Counted from the first letter of the stretch, positions 2,541-58,355 are shown. The stretch is 64,000 bases of DNA from an uncultured Lentisphaeraceae bacterium (GCA_964557205.1 CAZKZI010000001.1:29284-93283), one strand, 5' to 3'. Numbers and translations: made by a program. Notes: generated by a model not told the origin, from the sequence alone.

Positions 2541-3977
2541 TTGGGGATGAATAAAAAAACCATAATGGCCTTGGGGGTTTTGTCGGCTGGGGTTTTATGG
2601 GCTAGTCCGCTCATTCACTCTGATTGTGCGAACGACCGGAAGGCGCCCTTGGTCTGGGACCGTCCGAAGGAGTTTGATCCCGGCAAGCCGCATCTCGGCC
2701 TGCCGGTACTGACAGGCGCAACCCATCGTGTGCTTTACGATCCGCTCCCGAGCGAGGCCGACAAGACCGGACGCTACGAAAGTCTGCGGCACGGCACTTA
2801 TAACCACCATCAAAGTTTTGTCCGCTACAAGGATCGGGTGATCGTACTGTGGACCAATCACATGCGGGATGAAAACGGTCCGGGAATGCGTTTTTTGGCG
2901 AAGACCGGACGACTGGCGGCAGACGAGTCGGATATCGATTGGGGCAAAGACGAGACGCTTTCGGAAATCGGCCCGTCCGCGCATCCGGTGCGGCGGCGCC
3001 GAAACAAGGACGACACTTCAGTGATCGACGGGATTTTCGTCAACTCGGGGCTGGAAGTTCTGGAAGACGGACGCCTGTTCGTCTCGACAAGTCTGAAAGT
3101 CTGCGACGGCTGGGCGGATGACATTCAATATCATGTGGGGCAGGGACTGCGGGAACCGATACCGGATGAGCATTACGAGGCTTATAAAACTGTTGGGCCT
3201 GACCGTAAGCGGGGGTTCCGCTGGGACATCTACTGGTACGTGGGGCGTTACTTGCAGCAGGTGGAGATGGATGATGCGGGCAGGATCAAGCCTGCGGGAC
3301 AGATGTATGTAGTCGGAAAACCGCCGAAGACTGAAATGCGCCTGACCCCGACAATCACCAAAAAACTCTTGCCGCTGAATGAACCCTACCGCAGCGCGGT
3401 GCCATACGGGAAGGCGCCTGAAGAGTTGCGGAGCGCCTATTCCACGGGGCGGAGGGTTGCATCCTGCGGGCGTACGCCGCGATACGCGCCCGGCACATTC
3501 AAACTGGCGGAAAACGGTAAAAACGGCTTGTTCCACAACACGGAGTTTGTTCGTCCGGACGGCATGTGGGTCGCGGTGCGGGACAATCTGCTCGATACGG
3601 AAATATATTACGCGGCAGTTAAAGGCGACAAAGACGGGTTTTATCCGCCGGGGCGCAGAACCAACATGTTCGGAGGCGTCATGCCGGTGGCAGGCGAGCT
3701 GCCGAGCGGCGCGGTCTGGCTGATCGGCAGCAACCTGAACCGCACGGAGGCCTTCATCACGCTCGCAAAGGACGGTATTCATTTCAACAAAACGTGGTCG
3801 CTGCTTTCGCTGAATCTAAAGGCCACGCTAGGCATCTGCAAGGGTAGCGGCGGCGCGCAGTATTTCAGACAGATCACTATCGGACCGAACATCTGGGTCG
3901 TGTACAGTATTGCCAAGGAACAGGTTGGGATCACGAAGATTCCAGTCGCGTTGCTGGAACAAAAATTGAAGGAATGA
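2541..3977 (+). CDS. secreted hypothetical protein, tandem paralog A (unknown fold; possibly a glycan-active beta-propeller)
   Basis: 478 aa with signal peptide. Long collinear identity with the next ORF, e.g. HRVLYDPLPSEADKTGRYESLRHGTYNHHQ and GPNIWVVYSIAKEQVGITKIPVALLEQKLK in both. No family recognised by eye. Confidence 0.6.
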   Translation: MGMNKKTIMALGVLSAGVLWASPLIHSDCANDRKAPLVWDRPKEFDPGKPHLGLPVLTGATHRVLYDPLPSEADKTGRYESLRHGTYNHHQSFVRYKDRVIVLWTNHMRDENGPGMRFLAKTGRLAADESDIDWGKDETLSEIGPSAHPVRRRRNKDDTSVIDGIFVNSGLEVLEDGRLFVSTSLKVCDGWADDIQYHVGQGLREPIPDEHYEAYKTVGPDRKRGFRWDIYWYVGRYLQQVEMDDAGRIKPAGQMYVVGKPPKTEMRLTPTITKKLLPLNEPYRSAVPYGKAPEELRSAYSTGRRVASCGRTPRYAPGTFKLAENGKNGLFHNTEFVRPDGMWVAVRDNLLDTEIYYAAVKGDKDGFYPPGRRTNMFGGVMPVAGELPSGAVWLIGSNLNRTEAFITLAKDGIHFNKTWSLLSLNLKATLGICKGSGGAQYFRQITIGPNIWVVYSIAKEQVGITKIPVALLEQKLKE

Positions 3978-4004
3978 GGAAATCCGCGGGGAAGGTAAGG
4001 ACGT

Positions 4005-5408
4005 ATGATGTTTTTCAGAAGTGGTCTTGCGGCGCTGGCCGCCGCGCTGGTTTGCGCGGAGGAGCCCCCGTTGGTCTGGAAGCAGCCTGCCGGGTTCGAT
4101 CCCGGTAAGGCGGGACTGGGCCTGCCGGTGCTTACGGGGACGACCCATCGGGTGCTTTACGATCCGCTTCCGAGCGAGGCCGACAAGACCGGGCGCTATG
4201 AAAGTCTGCGCCACGGGACGTATAACCACCATCAAACGTTTTTCCGTTATAACAACCGTGTGATTATACGGTGGACCAACCACATGCAGGATGAAAATGG
4301 CCCCGGACAACGCTGCCTGGCGAAGACCGGACGGCTGACGGAAGACGGATCGGATATTGACTGGGGCGGGGACGAGACACTCTCCGAGCTGTGTCCGCCC
4401 CCGCATCCTGTACGCCGCCGCAGGAGCGCGGACACCAATTCCGTGATAGACGGGTTATTCGCCACAGCAGGACTTCATATACTGGAAGACGGGCAGATGT
4501 TTGTTTCTGTCCAGGTGAAACTCTGTGAGGGCTGGACGGATGACCTGAAATATCACACCGGCCTTTCGGAGCCGGTTCCGGACGAACACTACAATCCGGG
4601 ACCCGACCGGAAGCGGGGTTTCAAGTGGGATATTTACTGGAAGATGGGTAATTACCTGCGGCAGGTCGAGATGGATGATACGGGCAGGATCATGCCGATT
4701 GGACCGATGTACATCATAGGAAAGCCGCCGCTTACAACGGAGTTGCAGATCACCCCGACGATCGCCAAAAAAATATTGCCTATGAACGAGCCCTACCGCA
4801 GCGCGGTGCCTTATGAGACCGCGCCTAAAGAGATCAGGGACGCCTATTCCAAGGGGCCAAGGGTTCCGTCTTGCAGACGTTCGCTAAAGTATGCACCGGG
4901 CACGTCTCTGCTGGCCGAGAACGGTAAGAACGGGTTGATGCACAGTACAGAGTTTGTCCGTCCGGACGGAAAATGGGTTGCGGTGCGGGACAACCTGCTG
5001 GATCTCAGGATTTATTACGCGGCGGTCAAGGACAAGCAAGACGAGGTTTATCCGCCGGGGCGCAGGACCAACCTTTTTGGGGCCGTGATGCCGGTCGCGG
5101 GAGAATTGCCGAGCGGCGCGGTCTGGCTGATCGGCAGCAATCTGAGCCGTACAGAGGCTTACATCACGCTCGCCAAGGACGGTATTCATTTCGAAAAAAC
5201 ATGGTCGCTGCTATCTTCACAGAATCTCAGAGCCATGCATGGCATCAGTAAGGCATCGTCCGGCATCTGCAAAGGCGGTGACGGCGCGCAGTATTTTCAT
5301 TCAGTGACTATCGGACCGAACATCTGGGTCGTGTACAGTATTGCCAAGGAACAGGTGGGGATCACGAAGATTCCGGTCGCGTTGTTGGAACAGAAGCTGA
5401 AAAAGTAA
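4005..5408 (+). CDS. secreted hypothetical protein, tandem paralog B
   Basis: 467 aa, roughly 65-70% identical to the 2541..3977 product over its full length. Signal peptide MMFFRSGLAALAAALVCA. Confidence 0.6.
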   Translation: MMFFRSGLAALAAALVCAEEPPLVWKQPAGFDPGKAGLGLPVLTGTTHRVLYDPLPSEADKTGRYESLRHGTYNHHQTFFRYNNRVIIRWTNHMQDENGPGQRCLAKTGRLTEDGSDIDWGGDETLSELCPPPHPVRRRRSADTNSVIDGLFATAGLHILEDGQMFVSVQVKLCEGWTDDLKYHTGLSEPVPDEHYNPGPDRKRGFKWDIYWKMGNYLRQVEMDDTGRIMPIGPMYIIGKPPLTTELQITPTIAKKILPMNEPYRSAVPYETAPKEIRDAYSKGPRVPSCRRSLKYAPGTSLLAENGKNGLMHSTEFVRPDGKWVAVRDNLLDLRIYYAAVKDKQDEVYPPGRRTNLFGAVMPVAGELPSGAVWLIGSNLSRTEAYITLAKDGIHFEKTWSLLSSQNLRAMHGISKASSGICKGGDGAQYFHSVTIGPNIWVVYSIAKEQVGITKIPVALLEQKLKK

Positions 5409-55034: not shown

Positions 55035-55400
55035 GGTATGCAACCTTTCCGGGGCAACCTCGATACGCCCGGTAGTTTTCAGACAGGGAAGAGCGCGAAG
55101 AACGGCCCTTTATGCCTGTACGTTACCTTTTCCCCACCTGCACCTGCAGACAGTCCAAAACTAATCCTTTAAAGCGCCAAGATTATCGCCTTTGCCAATT
55201 ACCGGCAAGTGTAATTAATTGGATGTGGGACAAAAAAGTGACTTTACCTTGTAAAGCGGTTCATGCGGCCTTCTTACGAAGAGTCGCCCATCTTTTTTAT
55301 GACTGGTAATGCCTCAGTTATTGGCAGGTAATTACTTCTAATTCCGTAGATCAATAATTATGTGATGAAAAAAATAAGGCTCCTCGGCAGAATTTGTGGG

Positions 55401-55417
55401 TAAACCAGGGGACAGGT
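55401..55417. repeat. direct repeat copy 2 (aacCaggggacaggttg) upstream of fucosidase cassette
   Basis: See copy 1 at 53551-53567. Confidence 0.55.
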
Positions 55418-55547
55418 TGTTTATGTTACCATACCACTGACAGCCGCGCGGACGCGTCTGCACCCGCCGCCTCCCAAACGCGGGCTTTGCGGTGTTCCGG
55501 CGATGTGTTACAGTACATCTATGCTTTATAGGTGAAGAGAATGTGAC

Positions 55548-55850
55548 ATGCCCACACTGCAATGGTTGGACGACGACCAGGCCCGGAGAACCGTCGAAAA
55601 GGTGCCGTACCGGATGCTCCGGCCGGACGATGCGCTCTCGTGCGGTGACACTGACATTGTCACCATGCTCATTCTGGGCGACAAGCGCACGGCCAGCGGG
55701 AACGTGCTCAATTCTACGGTTTACGCCGGCCTGCCGCCGTTTGACGGGCCGAAGGTGATTTACGGGGAGTGGTGCCAATGGGGCACGGAGCGGCTCAAGC
55801 GTGAAAAGGTGGCGTTCAAGCAGACGCCGTATGACATCCGCGTGCGATGA
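55548..55850 (+). CDS. hypothetical protein (100 aa)
   Basis: GC-consistent ORF with purine-rich RBS-like sequence upstream. No recognisable family. No signal peptide. Confidence 0.35.
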   Translation: MPTLQWLDDDQARRTVEKVPYRMLRPDDALSCGDTDIVTMLILGDKRTASGNVLNSTVYAGLPPFDGPKVIYGEWCQWGTERLKREKVAFKQTPYDIRVR

Positions 55851-55915
55851 GAAAAAAGAGCGAAAGAGGTTTAGCCGCAAAGAGCGCAGAGAACGAAAAG
55901 AAGGGAGAGATGGGT

Positions 55916-56323
55916 ATGAAGACCATGAAAGAGTTGTGCGATATCGTGCGGGAAACGGCGTATGCGATACACGTCTATCATGGTCAGGGGCATTTGGAGA
56001 AGGTTTACGAGAACGCCTTAGCCCATCGGTTGCGTAAGGCCGGCGTTGAGGTGATGCAGCAACAGCCGCTCACCGTGTATGACGAGGACGGAACGGTGAT
56101 CGGCGAGTATTTTGCGGATCTGTTTGTGGACGGCCGGCTGATTGTCGAGTTGAAGGCGTGTCGCGCGTTGGCGCCGGAACACACCGCGCAGACGCTGGGA
56201 TACTTGAAATCTGCGAGGATTGAGGATGGGATGCTGATCAACTTCGGGAGCTTCAGGTTTCAGATACAGAAGTATGCGTTGCGTGATGCGGTAAGGCCGA
56301 AAGAGGGAATTGAAGAGGTTTAG
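55916..56323 (+). CDS. GxxExxY family protein (PD-(D/E)XK-like small protein family)
   Basis: ~135 aa. VYENALAHRLRKAGVEV...YFADLFVDGRLIVELKA...HTAQTLGYLKSARIEDGMLINFG matches the GxxExxY family pattern. ATG 55916 with AAGGGAGAG RBS. Confidence 0.75.
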   Translation: MKTMKELCDIVRETAYAIHVYHGQGHLEKVYENALAHRLRKAGVEVMQQQPLTVYDEDGTVIGEYFADLFVDGRLIVELKACRALAPEHTAQTLGYLKSARIEDGMLINFGSFRFQIQKYALRDAVRPKEGIEEV

Positions 56324-56790
56324 CCGCAAAGAACGCAGAGAACACAAAGAAGAGGGAGTAGTCAGCCGGTGACAGATTGTCACCGACTGGATTGATTCAA
56401 TCTCTGCGGTCCTTGCGTTCTTTGCGGCCAAATGAATTGGAGAGGTTTAGCCGCAGGGAAAGCAGAGAGTGCGAAGGAGCAAAGCGCATTAAGAAGGAAG
56501 GAAGCCAATCGGTGACAAATTGTCACCAGTTGAAAATGGAGGCCGAAGCCGGCAAGCTGCGTCTCACAAAACGCTGTTTGTGAGACGCAAATCAATTTGA
56601 GACGAATAGGTGAGACTCAAGCGGGACCGCTCAGAGAGAAAAGCGGGAGTCAAGTCAATCGGTTACAAATTGCAACCGGCTGGAATTCGGACACTGCTCC
56701 AATCTCTGCGATCCTTGCGTTCCTTGCGGCCAAATGAATTGGAGCGGTCTTAGCCGCAGACAGGGCCAGCCTGCGCGAGCAGGTGGCGCT
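56305..56790. repeat. array of three or more related structured repeat modules; first copy of the leader at 55862-55909 precedes the GxxExxY gene
   Basis: Each module has three parts: a leader motif gaggtttagccgca(a/g)ag..gcagagaac...aagaagggag; a perfect palindrome cggtgaca(g/a)attgtcacc (56366-56384, 56507-56524; variant caatcggttacaaattgcaaccgg at 56655-56680); and the reverse-complement motif caatctctgcgrtccttgcgttcyttgcggccaaatgaattggag (56398-56443, 56700-56745). Also a separate 11-bp-stem hairpin cgtctcacaaaacgctgtttgtgagacg (56557-56584). Confidence 0.65.
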
Positions 56791-56963
56791 TTCTATCCCG
56801 ATTTCGTCGCGCTCTTGAAAGATGGCCGTCGAAAATGACGAGTTCGGTCGTTCTGTGGAGGCTCAAATCAAAGCCGTATTAAAGAGCTGAATCGCACCCC
56901 GCGTCGTACTTTAAATCATTTCAGGCTTCAAATGCGCGCAGACGTAGAGTATAGTTAAAAACC

Positions 56964-58355
56964 ATGTCGAAAGCATACCTTTGCCTAATTTTTTGTTTTG
57001 TTTTCAAGCTTCTTCCGGTGACTGCGGATTGCGTCTCCTCTGATTGCGGCGGAGCTGCTGCCTGGCGCACGTTGCAACATGTGCAAAACGCCGTCGGCAC
57101 AACCAACTGCTTCTGGAACGGTGACTCGATATGTTTTTCCAACGCCCGGCAATCCGTGCGCTTCTACCTCAACCGCCGCAAGTCTGAAATTAACGGCGTG
57201 ACTGTTTGGCTCAACGCCCCGCCGGATGGCTCGGTGCCTAAAGGTGATTGGAGGCTGGCTGGAATCGATCTGGACTTGCTGCACCTGGCTGTGCTGCCGG
57301 AAACCGAAGGCCCGTTCAAACGCCTGCATGTCATGCTGGATCCCGGACACGGCGGCAGCGATAACGGCGCCAGCAGCCTCGACCCGCCGCTCAACGAGAA
57401 GGATCTGACACTGAAACTATCCCGCAAAATCGGCGCCGGCCTGAAAAAAATGGGGTTCAAAGTCAGCTACACACGAACCGGCGACTCCACCCTCACGCTG
57501 GACGAGCGTTCGCGGCTCGCCCGCAAAAAAAAGGCCGACCTTTTCGTAAGTATACACGCCAACCACGCCCGCAATAAAGCCGCCCAAGGTGTTGAGACCT
57601 TCGTGCTCCCGCCAAGCGGCTATCCGGGGACCGCCGCAGGCAGCCGCGTGCGCGGCTGGCAGATCGGCAACCGCAACGATTACCACAACACCCTGCTCGG
57701 TTTCTCGATCCACCGAGAGCTTACCGTACTGGCCGACTCAATAGACCGCGGACTCAAAAGGCAGTCGTTTTTTGTGTTGCGCGAGACAAGTTGCCCGGCC
57801 GTACTGCTCGAATTCGGATTTCTGTCAAATAAAGAGGAGACCCTGCGCATGCTGGATCCGGATTGGCAAACCCAAAGTACCGCTGCTGTGGCTGCCGGAA
57901 TAGCGTCATACGCCAAAAAAGTGGCAATTCTGGACCAATCTGTGGCCGCCAAGCGGGAAAGAGATGCCGAGACTAATGAGCGTTGGCGCAAACACTTGAC
58001 GGAACGCGGCGCCCAAATGACAAACGACCAACCGTCGATAATCGTCAGCGCGGCTAAAACACCATGCGTTTCAGAAAACGAGGCGGCTCCTGTGCCGATG
58101 ATTGCGAGCGCCCGGAAACCTTTGCCGGCTTATGCCGACGTACCTGATCCCGATCCTGTAACCGTACATGTGCCCGACCCGATGCCATCCTCAGCAACCA
58201 GATTCCCGGCTGCAGAGTCGCCTCCTTCTATAGAACTTAATAAAAAGTCTTCAGCACCACCTAAAGTCACGATCATAACCGGCACCAACACCGCACCGGT
58301 CCAGATCGACGCTCTGTTTGATTTTTATGAAACCGGCAAGGTACAACAACCATGA
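56964..58355 (+). CDS. N-acetylmuramoyl-L-alanine amidase (Amidase_3, AmiC-like) with N-terminal and low-complexity C-terminal extensions
   Basis: Catalytic-domain motifs VMLDPGHGGSDNGA, DLFVSIHANHA, GVETFVLPP. Signal-like N-terminus. Confidence 0.8.
   Translation: MSKAYLCLIFCFVFKLLPVTADCVSSDCGGAAAWRTLQHVQNAVGTTNCFWNGDSICFSNARQSVRFYLNRRKSEINGVTVWLNAPPDGSVPKGDWRLAGIDLDLLHLAVLPETEGPFKRLHVMLDPGHGGSDNGASSLDPPLNEKDLTLKLSRKIGAGLKKMGFKVSYTRTGDSTLTLDERSRLARKKKADLFVSIHANHARNKAAQGVETFVLPPSGYPGTAAGSRVRGWQIGNRNDYHNTLLGFSIHRELTVLADSIDRGLKRQSFFVLRETSCPAVLLEFGFLSNKEETLRMLDPDWQTQSTAAVAAGIASYAKKVAILDQSVAAKRERDAETNERWRKHLTERGAQMTNDQPSIIVSAAKTPCVSENEAAPVPMIASARKPLPAYADVPDPDPVTVHVPDPMPSSATRFPAAESPPSIELNKKSSAPPKVTIITGTNTAPVQIDALFDFYETGKVQQP

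What the first reader, a model, noticed from the sequence alone, without database searches (positions are those of the whole stretch)
55862..56790. Array of nested-palindrome repeat modules anchored on a GxxExxY-family gene
- The GxxExxY gene's 5' leader (gaggtttagccgcaaagagcgcagagaac...aagaagggagag-ATG) reappears twice downstream (56312, 56440) without an intact gene behind it.
- Each reappearance is followed by a perfect palindrome cggtgacaNattgtcacc and by the reverse complement of the leader motif. These can fold into ~110-nt hairpins with an internal palindrome at the apex.
- A third module (56650-56790) has the same parts.
- This is neither CRISPR-like (no constant repeat or spacer periodicity) nor a known IS.
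- It could be a family of gene-remnant or REP/MITE-like structured elements, a set of ncRNAs, or protein-binding operators (GTGACA-N4-TGTCAC).
- The adjacent 100-aa ORF (55548-55850) is also unassigned.
Basis: seen in the sequence. Interest (0 to 1): 0.65.

Follow-up and report, generated by a model that had tools for sequence, protein, structure and literature searches.

The report
Nuclease gene with conserved flanking repeats
A small, intact nuclease gene sits with its repeat "arms" in the wreck of a restriction-modification operon, and the same arms flank relatives of this gene in at least eight bacterial phyla, which points to an undescribed nuclease-plus-repeat element.

Summary
The repeats are real and far beyond chance, but the parse needs correcting.

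- **The "leader" is a ~31-nt arm.** Its consensus is TTAGCCGC followed by three 9-nt units. It occurs three times forward and twice inverted.
- **The arm is a family-wide feature.** At least one arm was found in 77 of 80 genome loci carrying close GxxExxY homologs, across at least eight phyla. The commonest layout is arm–gene–inverted arm. Gene-less hairpins and solo arms also exist.
- **The arms are conserved as sequence, not as a paired structure.** There is no wobble asymmetry, no covariation at the variable positions and no Rfam match.
- **The GGTGACA..TGTCACC palindrome is not part of this family.** Together with a stem-loop, it belongs to the leader upstream of res in a Type III restriction-modification operon.
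- **That operon is dead in the window.** The "unassigned 100-aa ORF" is an internally deleted mod gene, and res survives only as three fragments.
- **The GxxExxY gene is intact.** It is under strong purifying selection (dN/dS 0.03–0.07).

My best reading, which is inferred rather than shown, is that the arms are the cognate DNA sites of the GxxExxY PD-(D/E)XK nuclease. The system would then resemble REPIN–RAYT, but with a different enzyme. The ncRNA reading is not supported.

The parts
55548..55850 (+). Remnant of a Type III DNA methyltransferase gene (mod). The N-terminal ~35-48 aa (the junction lies within the repeat) are fused to the C-terminal ~60 aa, and about 1.25 kb is missing.
   Evidence: It aligns to both ends of the intact 506-508-aa mod genes of L043 and L082. 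Those genes hit PF01555 and PADLOC MTase_III at 3e-169. The deletion junction lies between two imperfect direct repeats, CATYCWGGGCGACAA.
55644..55664 (.). GGTGACA-N7-TGTCACC palindrome inside the mod remnant. Unexplained.
   Evidence: Relatives L082 and L043 carry an unrelated 21 nt at this position, while their flanks are about 90% identical to the window.
55864..55909 (+). Forward arm 1 (core 55871-55901) plus the Shine-Dalgarno-like GGGAGAG, directly upstream of the gene.
   Evidence: Repeat family D1. nhmmer arm hit at 55871+.
55910..56323 (+). Intact GxxExxY gene encoding a minimal PD-(D/E)XK nuclease. An alternative start lies at 55916. The last ~15 codons read into the junction and forward arm 2.
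   Evidence: PF13366 at 1.2e-30 and TIGR04256 at 2.3e-32. G25, E28, Y31, D68, E78 and K80 are invariant in alignment A3. dN/dS against L082, L002, L043 and L004 is 0.03-0.07.
56320..56350 (+). Forward arm 2, the left arm of hairpin module 1.
56363..56389 (.). Palindrome P1 (cagccGGTGACAgatTGTCACCgactg) at the apex of module 1.
   Evidence: Inverted repeat I16. It is absent from the equivalent hairpins of L043.
56401..56431 (-). Inverted arm 1, the right arm of module 1. It is followed by the 15-nt junction 56432-56446 (atgaattggagaggt).
   Evidence: Inverted repeat I3 is 81% complementary to 56319-56350. nhmmer hit at 56401-. Fold.
56447..56477 (+). Forward arm 3, a diverged copy (67% identity to the reference copy over the 46-nt repeat).
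   Evidence: Repeat families D1 and D4.
56506..56532 (.). Palindrome P2 (caatcGGTGACAaatTGTCACCagttg).
   Evidence: Inverted repeat I17.
56533..56650 (+). Segment homologous to the leader upstream of res in related Type III operons. It includes a perfect 13-bp stem-loop at 56558-56589.
   Evidence: Inverted repeat I11. Alignment A5 with L205 and L203. The same leader is present in L206.
56660..56679 (.). Palindrome P3, a degenerate copy (CGGTTACAaatTGCAACCGG). It occupies the native position of the palindrome in the res leader.
   Evidence: It aligns with the palindromes of L202, L203, L205 and L082 in A5.
56703..56733 (-). Inverted arm 2. In intact relatives this arm lies between the palindrome and the res start codon.
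   Evidence: Repeat family D3. nhmmer hit at 56703-. The arm is present in L202, L205 and L082 and absent from L203 and L206.
56744..56890 (+). Three fragments of the Type III res gene: roughly aa 527-542, 796-814 and 851-871, followed by the stop codon.
   Evidence: tblastn with the res proteins of L202 and L203, E = 2e-13. The "fourth leader copy" at 56750-56766 falls inside the first fragment.

Best explanation
**Shown.**
- The region is the former mod-res spacer of a Type III restriction-modification operon that carries a GxxExxY cassette.
- The repeated "leader" is a ~31-nt arm, TTAGCCGC followed by three 9-nt units of the form CRCARAGAA. This arm is the characteristic flanking repeat of this GxxExxY subfamily across many phyla.
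- The window reads, in order:
  1. mod remnant
  2. forward arm and intact gene
  3. junction
  4. forward arm, palindrome, inverted arm
  5. junction
  6. forward arm, palindrome, res-leader segment, palindrome, inverted arm
  7. res fragments
- The palindrome and the stem-loop belong to the res leader, not to the arm family.

**Inferred.**
- The arms are the cognate DNA sites of the GxxExxY PD-(D/E)XK nuclease. Three iteron-like units spaced about one helical turn apart would be read as sequence.
- Gene plus arms would form a selfish or semi-domesticated nuclease-repeat system that behaves like REPIN-RAYT.
  - The gene-carrying unit (arm-gene-arm, about 480-510 nt) would be the autonomous form.
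  - The 72-144-nt hairpins and the solo arms would be its non-autonomous derivatives or landing sites.
- The local array probably grew by unequal recombination between arm-containing units.
- Microhomology deletions then destroyed mod and res, while selection kept the nuclease gene.
For: **The arms go with the gene.**
- An arm model seeded from the window finds 271 arms in 646 kb of gene-centred loci (the 80 genome loci, the window and L001); 77 of the 80 genome loci have at least one arm.
- The nearest arms are forward upstream and inverted downstream in 39 of 76 loci.
- The outer span of arm pairs is bimodal, 72-144 nt or 454-624 nt.

**The arms are constrained as sequence.**
- In eight orthologous nuoJ-[arm-gene-arm]-nuoK loci, arm identity is 0.84 and 0.81.
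- In the same loci, third codon positions score 0.52-0.66 and the tail between the gene and the inverted arm scores 0.61.

**The unit that duplicates is arm-gene-arm.** Two paralogs in one MAG (L062 and L079) share only 478 nt at 94% identity.

**Different GxxExxY subfamilies carry different arms of the same design.**
- L207 has AACCGCAAATGGACGCCAATGGACGCGAATGGA on one side of its gene and an inverted copy on the other.
- Divergent representatives show read-through peptides of periodic repeats: TENTGFTDNTEK, ATEHTEHAEK, NADERR.

**Gene-less derivatives exist.** In an arm-centred metagenome sample of 119 loci and 206 arms, about 11 loci have the gene beside the arm, about 45 hold gene-less hairpins and about 35 hold solo arms.

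**Indels coincide with arm boundaries.**
- The inverted arm in front of res is present in L202, L205, L082 and the window. It is absent from L203 and L206.
- In L207 and L208, mod and res abut with no spacer at all.

**The nuclease is maintained.** The catalytic residues are intact and dN/dS is 0.03-0.07, although the flanking R-M genes are dead.
Against: - There is no direct evidence that GxxExxY binds or cuts the arms.
- No target-site duplications were found at the ends of 106 isolated arm pairs.
- No clean empty versus filled site was found for the gene-carrying unit itself.
- L002 carries the same block in another genomic context. It also carries a fragment of the Bro-N cargo gene of the same R-M island, so it is not independent evidence of transposition.
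- The element is stably inherited at one site within the nuo operon in eight species. That fits a domesticated or host-useful role as well as it fits a selfish one.
- Close relatives are absent from viral contigs. Relatives are nearly absent from plasmids.
- A hydrolytic PD-(D/E)XK enzyme of about 125 aa is not a known transposase type.
- The arm model was refined iteratively on the same loci it was then used to score.
Confidence: 0.55

Rival explanations
1. The arms act in RNA. The forward and inverted arms pair in the operon transcript. They would form processing sites (for example for RNase III), stabilising hairpins, or a switch that hides the ribosome-binding site. The gene-less hairpins would be cis-regulatory RNA elements.
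For: - The predicted hairpins are very stable, with z = -5.5 to -12.2.
- The gene is co-directional with its upstream neighbour in 51 of 69 loci. Both neighbours are co-directional in 31 loci, against 8 where both are opposite.
- The forward arm ends at the Shine-Dalgarno sequence just before the start codon.
- The inverted arm ends about 8 nt before the nuoK start codon.
Against: - G.U and A.C mismatches are balanced: 121 vs 122 in gene-less hairpins and 54 vs 80 in gene-bracketing pairs.
- At the variable inner positions, partner arms match at or below the permuted expectation.
- Overall pairing is 86.3% against 84.5% after shuffling. Double changes are concentrated at the outer pairs 1-4 (20 of 48 cells), which vary by lineage.
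- Solo arms without a partner are common.
- The gene can sit between arms in any orientation combination: 39 forward/inverted, 9 inverted/forward, 5 inverted/inverted and 4 forward/forward.
- There is no Rfam match.
Confidence: 0.15
2. The arms are binding sites for a host protein, acting as iteron- or operator-like sites or as nucleoid or replication-associated sites. GxxExxY would merely be a frequent passenger next to them.
For: - The arms have three units spaced about one helical turn apart.
- They are conserved as sequence rather than as a paired structure.
- Most arms in the arm-centred sample have no GxxExxY gene nearby.
Against: - Arm sequence type changes together with GxxExxY subfamily.
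- The duplicated unit within one MAG is arm-gene-arm.
- The same arm sequence occurs in phyla as distant as Kiritimatiellota, Nitrospirota, Chloroflexota and cyanobacteria, always together with this gene subfamily. A shared host factor would be hard to reconcile with that spread.
Confidence: 0.12
3. In this window the modules are inert debris. They would be local tandem duplications of the gene's flank in a decaying locus, with no present function.
For: - The surrounding R-M operon is dead.
- Forward arm 3 and palindrome P3 are degenerate.
- The number and position of hairpins differ between the close relatives L043, L082 and L002.
Against: - The arms flanking the gene are well preserved: 89% identity between arms 1 and 2, and 91% between the two inverted arms.
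- The same arms are constrained in vertically inherited loci.
- The gene is under strong purifying selection.
Confidence: 0.12
4. The array is an integron-like cassette array, with the hairpins serving as attC sites.
For: Promoterless small ORFs are followed by imperfect hairpins of 70-140 nt. Different cargo genes (Bro-N, Fic, GxxExxY) occupy the same mod-res spacer in related operons.
Against: - No integrase lies near the array.
- The arm ends read TTAGCC...GGCTAA, not RYYYAAC...GTTRRRY.
- The arms are sequence-conserved across phyla, unlike attC sites. This last point rests on my own knowledge of attC.
Confidence: 0.02

Closest known systems
REPIN-RAYT systems and BIME clusters of REP sequences (PMC3116915, PMC3337134)
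   Same: - A short conserved repeat occurs singly, as inverted doublets that can form hairpins, and in clusters of alternating orientation.
- The associated enzyme gene is itself flanked by the repeats in inverted orientation.
- Inheritance at a locus is long and vertical, and the enzyme gene is under purifying selection.
   Different: - The enzyme is a ~125-aa PD-(D/E)XK nuclease, not an HUH/Y1 transposase.
- The arms are built from three 9-nt direct units and show no compensatory stem evolution.
- Several gene copies can occur per genome (L042 has two; L062 and L079 come from the same MAG).
- The same arm sequence is shared across phyla.
MITEs and their autonomous IS partners
   Same: - There are inverted terminal arms.
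- A bimodal population consists of gene-carrying units (about 480-510 nt) and gene-less units (72-144 nt).
- Units cluster and nest next to each other (L023, L073, L076).
   Different: - No target-site duplication was found.
- There is no recognisable transposase.
- Solo arms are common.
- The gene can sit in either kind of spacer between arms.
Homing endonuclease genes, and the ORF-bearing intervening sequences of 23S rRNA (the latter from my own knowledge)
   Same: A small free-standing nuclease ORF is bracketed by inverted repeats. It is inserted co-directionally into host operons without an evident promoter of its own.
   Different: There is no intron, intein or rRNA context. No reconstituted target site has been demonstrated. 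PF13366 is not a known homing endonuclease family.
Controller (C-protein) operators of restriction-modification systems (own knowledge)
   Same: The palindrome CGGTKACA-N3-TGTMACCG lies 25-75 nt upstream of res. Its two halves change together: GGTGACA/TGTCACC in L203, L206 and L082, against GGTTACA/TGTAACC in L202 and L205.
   Different: No C-protein gene was identified beside it. The sequence is not the published C-box consensus. It occurs only in the operons that carry a mod-res spacer.

Membership tests
GxxExxY / PDDEXK_3 (PF13366, TIGR04256) | Profile match above the curated cut-off | tested here: met
   PF13366 scores 106.7 bits against a cut-off of 22. TIGR04256 scores 111.8 bits against a cut-off of 35.
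GxxExxY / PDDEXK_3 (PF13366, TIGR04256) | G-x-x-E-x-x-Y motif plus the D and E-x-K residues of the PD-(D/E)XK core | tested here: met
   G25, E28, Y31, D68, E78 and K80 are invariant in 26 sequences that include the window protein.
REPIN-RAYT | The associated gene is a RAYT (an HUH/Y1 transposase of the IS200/IS605 type) | tested here: not met
   The gene is PF13366, a PD-(D/E)XK nuclease. It has no other Pfam hit.
REPIN-RAYT | Repeats occur as inverted doublets and flank the enzyme gene in inverted orientation | tested here: met
   About 54 doublets of 72-144 nt and about 42 gene-bracketing pairs were found. The layout is forward/inverted in 39 of 76 loci.
REPIN-RAYT | The hairpin stem is maintained by compensatory change | tested here: not met
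   There is no wobble asymmetry. Partner match does not exceed the permuted expectation at the variable inner positions.
REPIN-RAYT | Tens to hundreds of repeat copies per genome with a single-copy enzyme gene | not testable with these tools
   Only 64 kb of this genome is held, and it contains a single locus.
MITE / IS with terminal inverted repeats | Terminal inverted repeats | tested here: met
   The arms are 79-82% identical to their inverted partners over 28 nt.
MITE / IS with terminal inverted repeats | Target-site duplication flanking the element | tested here: not met
   No direct repeats were found at the ends of 106 isolated pairs. The outer 4 nt vary as inverted complements, not as direct repeats.
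MITE / IS with terminal inverted repeats | Presence/absence polymorphism with exact element boundaries | tested here: inconclusive
   A 42-44-nt solo-arm indel separates L203 and L206 from L205, L202 and L082. No such pair was found for a hairpin or for the gene-carrying unit.
Structured non-coding RNA | Match to a curated RNA family, or covariation-supported pairs | tested here: not met
   Rfam at gathering thresholds gives 0 hits in the window. With the E-value threshold only chance-level hits appear, E = 5-8. Covariation tests are negative.
CRISPR array | A constant direct repeat with unique spacers of similar length | tested here: not met
   The arms alternate in orientation. The segments between them are 15, ~50, ~225 and 418 nt long.
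Integron cassette array | attC core sites (RYYYAAC / GTTRRRY) and an intI gene nearby | tested here: not met
   The arm ends read TTAGCC / GGCTAA. The tested ORFs nearest the array are a fucosidase, an amidase and a 3-keto-disaccharide hydrolase.
Type III restriction-modification operon (the context) | A mod gene (PF01555, MTase_III) followed by a res gene (PF04851) | tested here: met
   The operon is intact in L082, L202, L203 and L205-L208. In the window only remnants of both genes survive.

The most novel reading that the evidence does not exclude
GxxExxY (PF13366) genes and their iteron-built arms form a previously unrecognised, cross-phylum class of nuclease-driven repeat elements. A minimal PD-(D/E)XK nuclease would recognise its own three-unit arms. 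It would propagate or maintain arm-gene-arm units, hairpin doublets and solo arms in chromosomes, including inside essential operons and in frame within genes.
Probability: 0.4. Interest if true: 0.8.

Novelty: new variant of a known kind. Interest (0 to 1): 0.62.

Why it matters
PF13366 is a large family of unknown function. This search found 8,687 clusters at 50% identity, and the few papers that name the family give no function.

Linking the family to a conserved, sequence-constrained DNA repeat gives it a concrete and testable substrate. It also suggests a second, enzymatically unrelated solution to the REPIN-RAYT lifestyle.

There are practical consequences for annotation:
- The arms generate spurious N- and C-terminal extensions on GxxExxY gene calls.
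- They can be translated in frame as parts of other genes.
- They cross-match the NuoM coding sequence.

For this window specifically, the analysis converts an "unassigned ORF plus odd repeats" into a dated story: a Type III R-M operon that died while its passenger gene survived.

Tried and rejected
**Searches that found nothing**
- Rfam at gathering and at permissive thresholds gave nothing usable.
- The PDB sequence search gave no hit. PADLOC gave no hit for GxxExxY.
- Close relatives are absent from viral contigs. Only two distant hits were found on plasmids. No transfer vector was therefore identified.
- Literature searches for the arm sequence, GxxExxY, PF13366 and TIGR04256 gave no description of the repeats.
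- The promoter and terminator scan found nothing inside the array.

**Analyses that did not work**
- The AlphaFold2 model of GxxExxY, built from a shallow 26-sequence alignment, had a mean pLDDT of 49.7. It was too poor for a fold search, so none was run.

**Readings I rejected**
- Target-site duplications: none were found.
- "L002 shows transposition of the block": L002 also carries the 5' end of the Bro-N cargo gene of the same R-M island.
- "A fourth leader copy at 56750": this is res coding sequence.
- "The apex palindrome is part of the hairpin family": it is restricted to the window's own lineage and to the related Type III mod-res operons. It is native to the res leader.
- "The gene always sits inside the hairpin loop": all four arm orientation combinations occur.

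Full report
**1. The observation**

- The 46-nt stretch upstream of the GxxExxY gene (55864-55909) recurs at 56313-56358 (89% identity) and at 56440-56485 (67%).
- Two inverted copies lie at 56393-56446 and 56695-56748 and are 91% alike.
- A 24-mer from the leader matches twice in the 64-kb window, against 0 expected.
- GGTGACA-N(1-9)-TGTCACC matches three times against 0.00 expected. A degenerate fourth copy lies at 56660-56679.
- Module 1 folds into the predicted long hairpin: -55.6 kcal/mol with z = -5.5 on the + strand, and -65.6 kcal/mol with z = -12.2 on the - strand.
- The gene is a true GxxExxY / PF13366 member and the only one in the window.

**2. The leader is a family-wide arm**

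Homologs of the protein are very numerous and unusually conserved. More than 7,000 proteins were found, and the best 120 listed are 73-100% identical to the query. The wider family holds 8,687 clusters at 50% identity. Many gene calls carry odd extensions such as ...ERTQGTQR... or ...LSLFSAFFAFLCG. These are translations of the same DNA repeat in either orientation.

I fetched 80 genome loci from Kiritimatiellia, Verrucomicrobiota, Planctomycetota, Nitrospirota, Anaerolineae, cyanobacteria, Lentisphaerae, Fibrobacteria and Trichlorobacter. An nhmmer model seeded with the window's leader converged on the consensus TTAGCCGCAAAGAACGCAGAGAACACAAAGA. That is TTAGCCGC followed by three 9-nt units.
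- The model found 271 arms in the 646 kb of gene-centred sequence searched. At least one arm occurs in 77 of the 80 genome loci. In the window it found arms only at 55871+, 56320+, 56401- and 56703-.
- Adjacent forward/inverted pairs have a bimodal outer span. Pairs of 72-144 nt are gene-less hairpins, and pairs of 454-624 nt bracket a GxxExxY gene. In arrays, successive hairpins are joined by 13-21-nt junctions.
- The nearest arms are forward upstream and inverted downstream in 39 of 76 loci. The other three orientation combinations also occur, in 9, 5 and 4 loci.

**3. Sequence versus structure**

An arm and the reverse complement of its partner are 79-82% identical. The mismatches are mostly transitions, and they show no wobble bias.
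- G.U against A.C on the + strand is 121 vs 122 in gene-less hairpins, and 54 vs 80 in gene-bracketing pairs.
- At the variable inner positions, partner arms agree no more often than randomly re-paired arms.
- A formal count on 47 arm pairs gives 86.3% paired cells against 84.5% after shuffling. Double changes are concentrated at the outer pairs 1-4 (20 of 48 cells), which vary by lineage.
- Rfam has no match.

The arms are nonetheless constrained. In eight orthologous Verrucomicrobiota loci the unit arm-gene-arm sits exactly between nuoJ and nuoK. Arm identity there is 0.84 and 0.81. Third codon positions score 0.52-0.66, and the tail between the gene and the inverted arm scores 0.61. The conserved property is therefore the arm sequence, not its pairing.

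**4. Derivatives and spread**

An arm-centred scan of metagenome contigs returned 119 loci holding 206 arms.
- About 11 loci have a GxxExxY ORF beside the arm.
- About 45 loci hold gene-less hairpins.
- About 35 loci hold high-scoring solo arms with no detectable partner.
- About 8 loci are false positives inside NuoM coding sequence.

Further points on spread:
- No target-site duplications were seen.
- Two paralogs in one MAG share only 478 nt, which corresponds to arm-gene-arm.
- L042 carries a second bracketed paralog.
- L023 has four arm units upstream of the gene, mirrored by three or four downstream.
- A divergent GxxExxY gene in L207 is flanked by a different arm of the same design, AACCGCAAATGGACGCCAATGGACGCGAATGGA on one side and its inverted copy on the other.
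- Divergent family representatives show other periodic read-through peptides.

Arm type thus tracks protein subfamily.

**5. The local context**

Close relatives resolve the rest of the region.
- L082 is an intact Type III operon. Its order is mod, a hairpin, forward arm and GxxExxY gene, a second hairpin, then res.
- L043 has a full-length mod gene followed by two hairpins and the GxxExxY gene.
- The window's 100-aa ORF aligns to both ends of mod. About 1.25 kb was lost between two imperfect direct repeats.
- res survives as three fragments at 56744-56890.

Related operons carry other cargo in the same spacer, or none.

| Locus | Content between mod and res |
|---|---|
| L203, L206 | A Bro-N-like ORF |
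| L205 | A Fic gene |
| L202 | A 98-nt spacer |
| L207, L208 | No spacer; the genes abut |

Alignment A5 and the sequence of L206 show that two of the window's features belong to the leader upstream of res. These are the stem-loop at 56558-56589 and the palindrome. The palindrome's half-sites change together, GGTGACA/TGTCACC against GGTTACA/TGTAACC.

The inverted arm between the palindrome and the res start codon is present in L202, L205, L082 and the window. It is absent from L203 and L206. That is an indel of 42-44 nt whose ends coincide with an arm.

The hairpins of L043 lack the palindrome. Among the 201 loci then held, it occurred only in L001, L002 and L082. It was later found in L202, L203, L205 and L206 as well.

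**6. Interpretation**

Shown:
- the anatomy listed under "parts";
- the family-wide link between arms and the gene;
- constraint on arm sequence without structural covariation;
- a dead R-M operon around a gene under purifying selection (dN/dS 0.03-0.07).

Inferred:
- The arms are the cognate DNA sites of the GxxExxY nuclease.
- The whole behaves like a REPIN-RAYT system built on a different enzyme (PMC3116915, PMC3337134).
- The extra modules in the window arose by unequal recombination between arm units.

The RNA-hairpin reading remains possible but lacks the expected signatures. The host-factor reading struggles with the co-variation between arm type and protein subfamily, and with the cross-phylum identity of the arms.

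I found no description of these repeats in the searchable literature. That is not proof that none exists.

**7. Limits**
- The arm model was refined on the same loci that it scores.
- The metagenome sample required an exact 21-mer match, so it is biased towards well-preserved arms.
- Only 64 kb of the source genome is available.
- No experiment bears on nuclease activity.
- The structural model was too poor to use.

Noticed in passing
window 55644-55664: A GGTGACA-N7-TGTCACC palindrome sits inside the mod remnant. Relatives L082 and L043 have an unrelated 21 nt at this spot (about 10 of 21 differ), while the flanks are about 90% identical. It could be a conversion patch from the leader palindrome, or chance.
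   Followed up: partly
L203 5538-6392; L206 5040-5900; L205 1641-2759; L207 and L208 mod-res junctions: The mod-res spacer of this Type III operon family is a cargo slot. It holds a Bro-N-like ORF, a Fic gene, the GxxExxY cassette, or nothing (the genes abut, with 7 nt or 1 nt between them). The stem-loop and palindrome leader appears only where a spacer exists.
   Followed up: partly
L020, L024, L028, L041, L046, L053, L059, L063 (about 3955-4470 in each): The arm-gene-arm unit sits exactly between nuoJ and nuoK of complex I in eight Verrucomicrobiota species. The TAG of the arm's TAGCC serves as the nuoJ stop codon, and the inverted arm ends about 8 nt before the nuoK start.
   Followed up: yes
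L018 and L025 about 4400-4460; L035 about 4400-4450: The inverted arm is read in frame as the hydrophobic core of an N-terminal signal-peptide-like segment (...KLLSLLFAFFAIFCGHSSAAS...). The segment belongs to the large downstream protein, which looks sulfatase-like by motif. There is no stop codon between it and the GxxExxY ORF.
   Followed up: no
L136 about 536-760: A solo arm lies in frame inside a DNA methyltransferase gene (...WGNL-LAAKNAENAK-IGFDYIMGNPPF...). A second arm-like stretch (ATKNTENTK) lies 192 nt away in the same ORF. Other solo arms lie beside methyltransferase genes (L143, L160).
   Followed up: no
L089, L106, L119, L132, L164, L194: The 21-nt arm core also matches conserved NuoM coding sequence (FFAFFAA just before VKVPMWPVHTWLPDAHVEA, on the opposite strand). 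This is a source of false positives in any search for the arm.
   Followed up: partly
L178, L179, L197, L199 (around the arm); L190; L169; L116: Other short periodic repeats with the same design lie directly next to the arm. Examples are TTAACCGCGAATGATGCGAATTGTCGCGAAT, TTTCATGAAGTTTCATGTGTTTCATGG, TTAACCACAGATGGACACGGATTGACACGGA and AGCCACGAAGGGCACGAAG. Several arm families therefore seem to cluster together.
   Followed up: no
L023 1-1200: Four ~100-nt units, each an arm plus about 70 nt, lie upstream of the gene. Three or four inverted copies mirror them downstream. This gives a nested or mirrored palindrome of several hundred nt around one GxxExxY gene.
   Followed up: partly
L002 2010-2050: Immediately after its hairpin array, L002 carries the first ~40 nt of the Bro-N cargo ORF (ATGACAAGCGAGACGTTGGCC...). 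L002 is therefore a relic of the same R-M island sitting in a different genomic context.
   Followed up: partly
window 56927-56955: The only sigma-70-like promoter match in 55300-57100 lies just upstream of the amidase gene (56964-58355). No terminator-like site occurs in the array.
   Followed up: no
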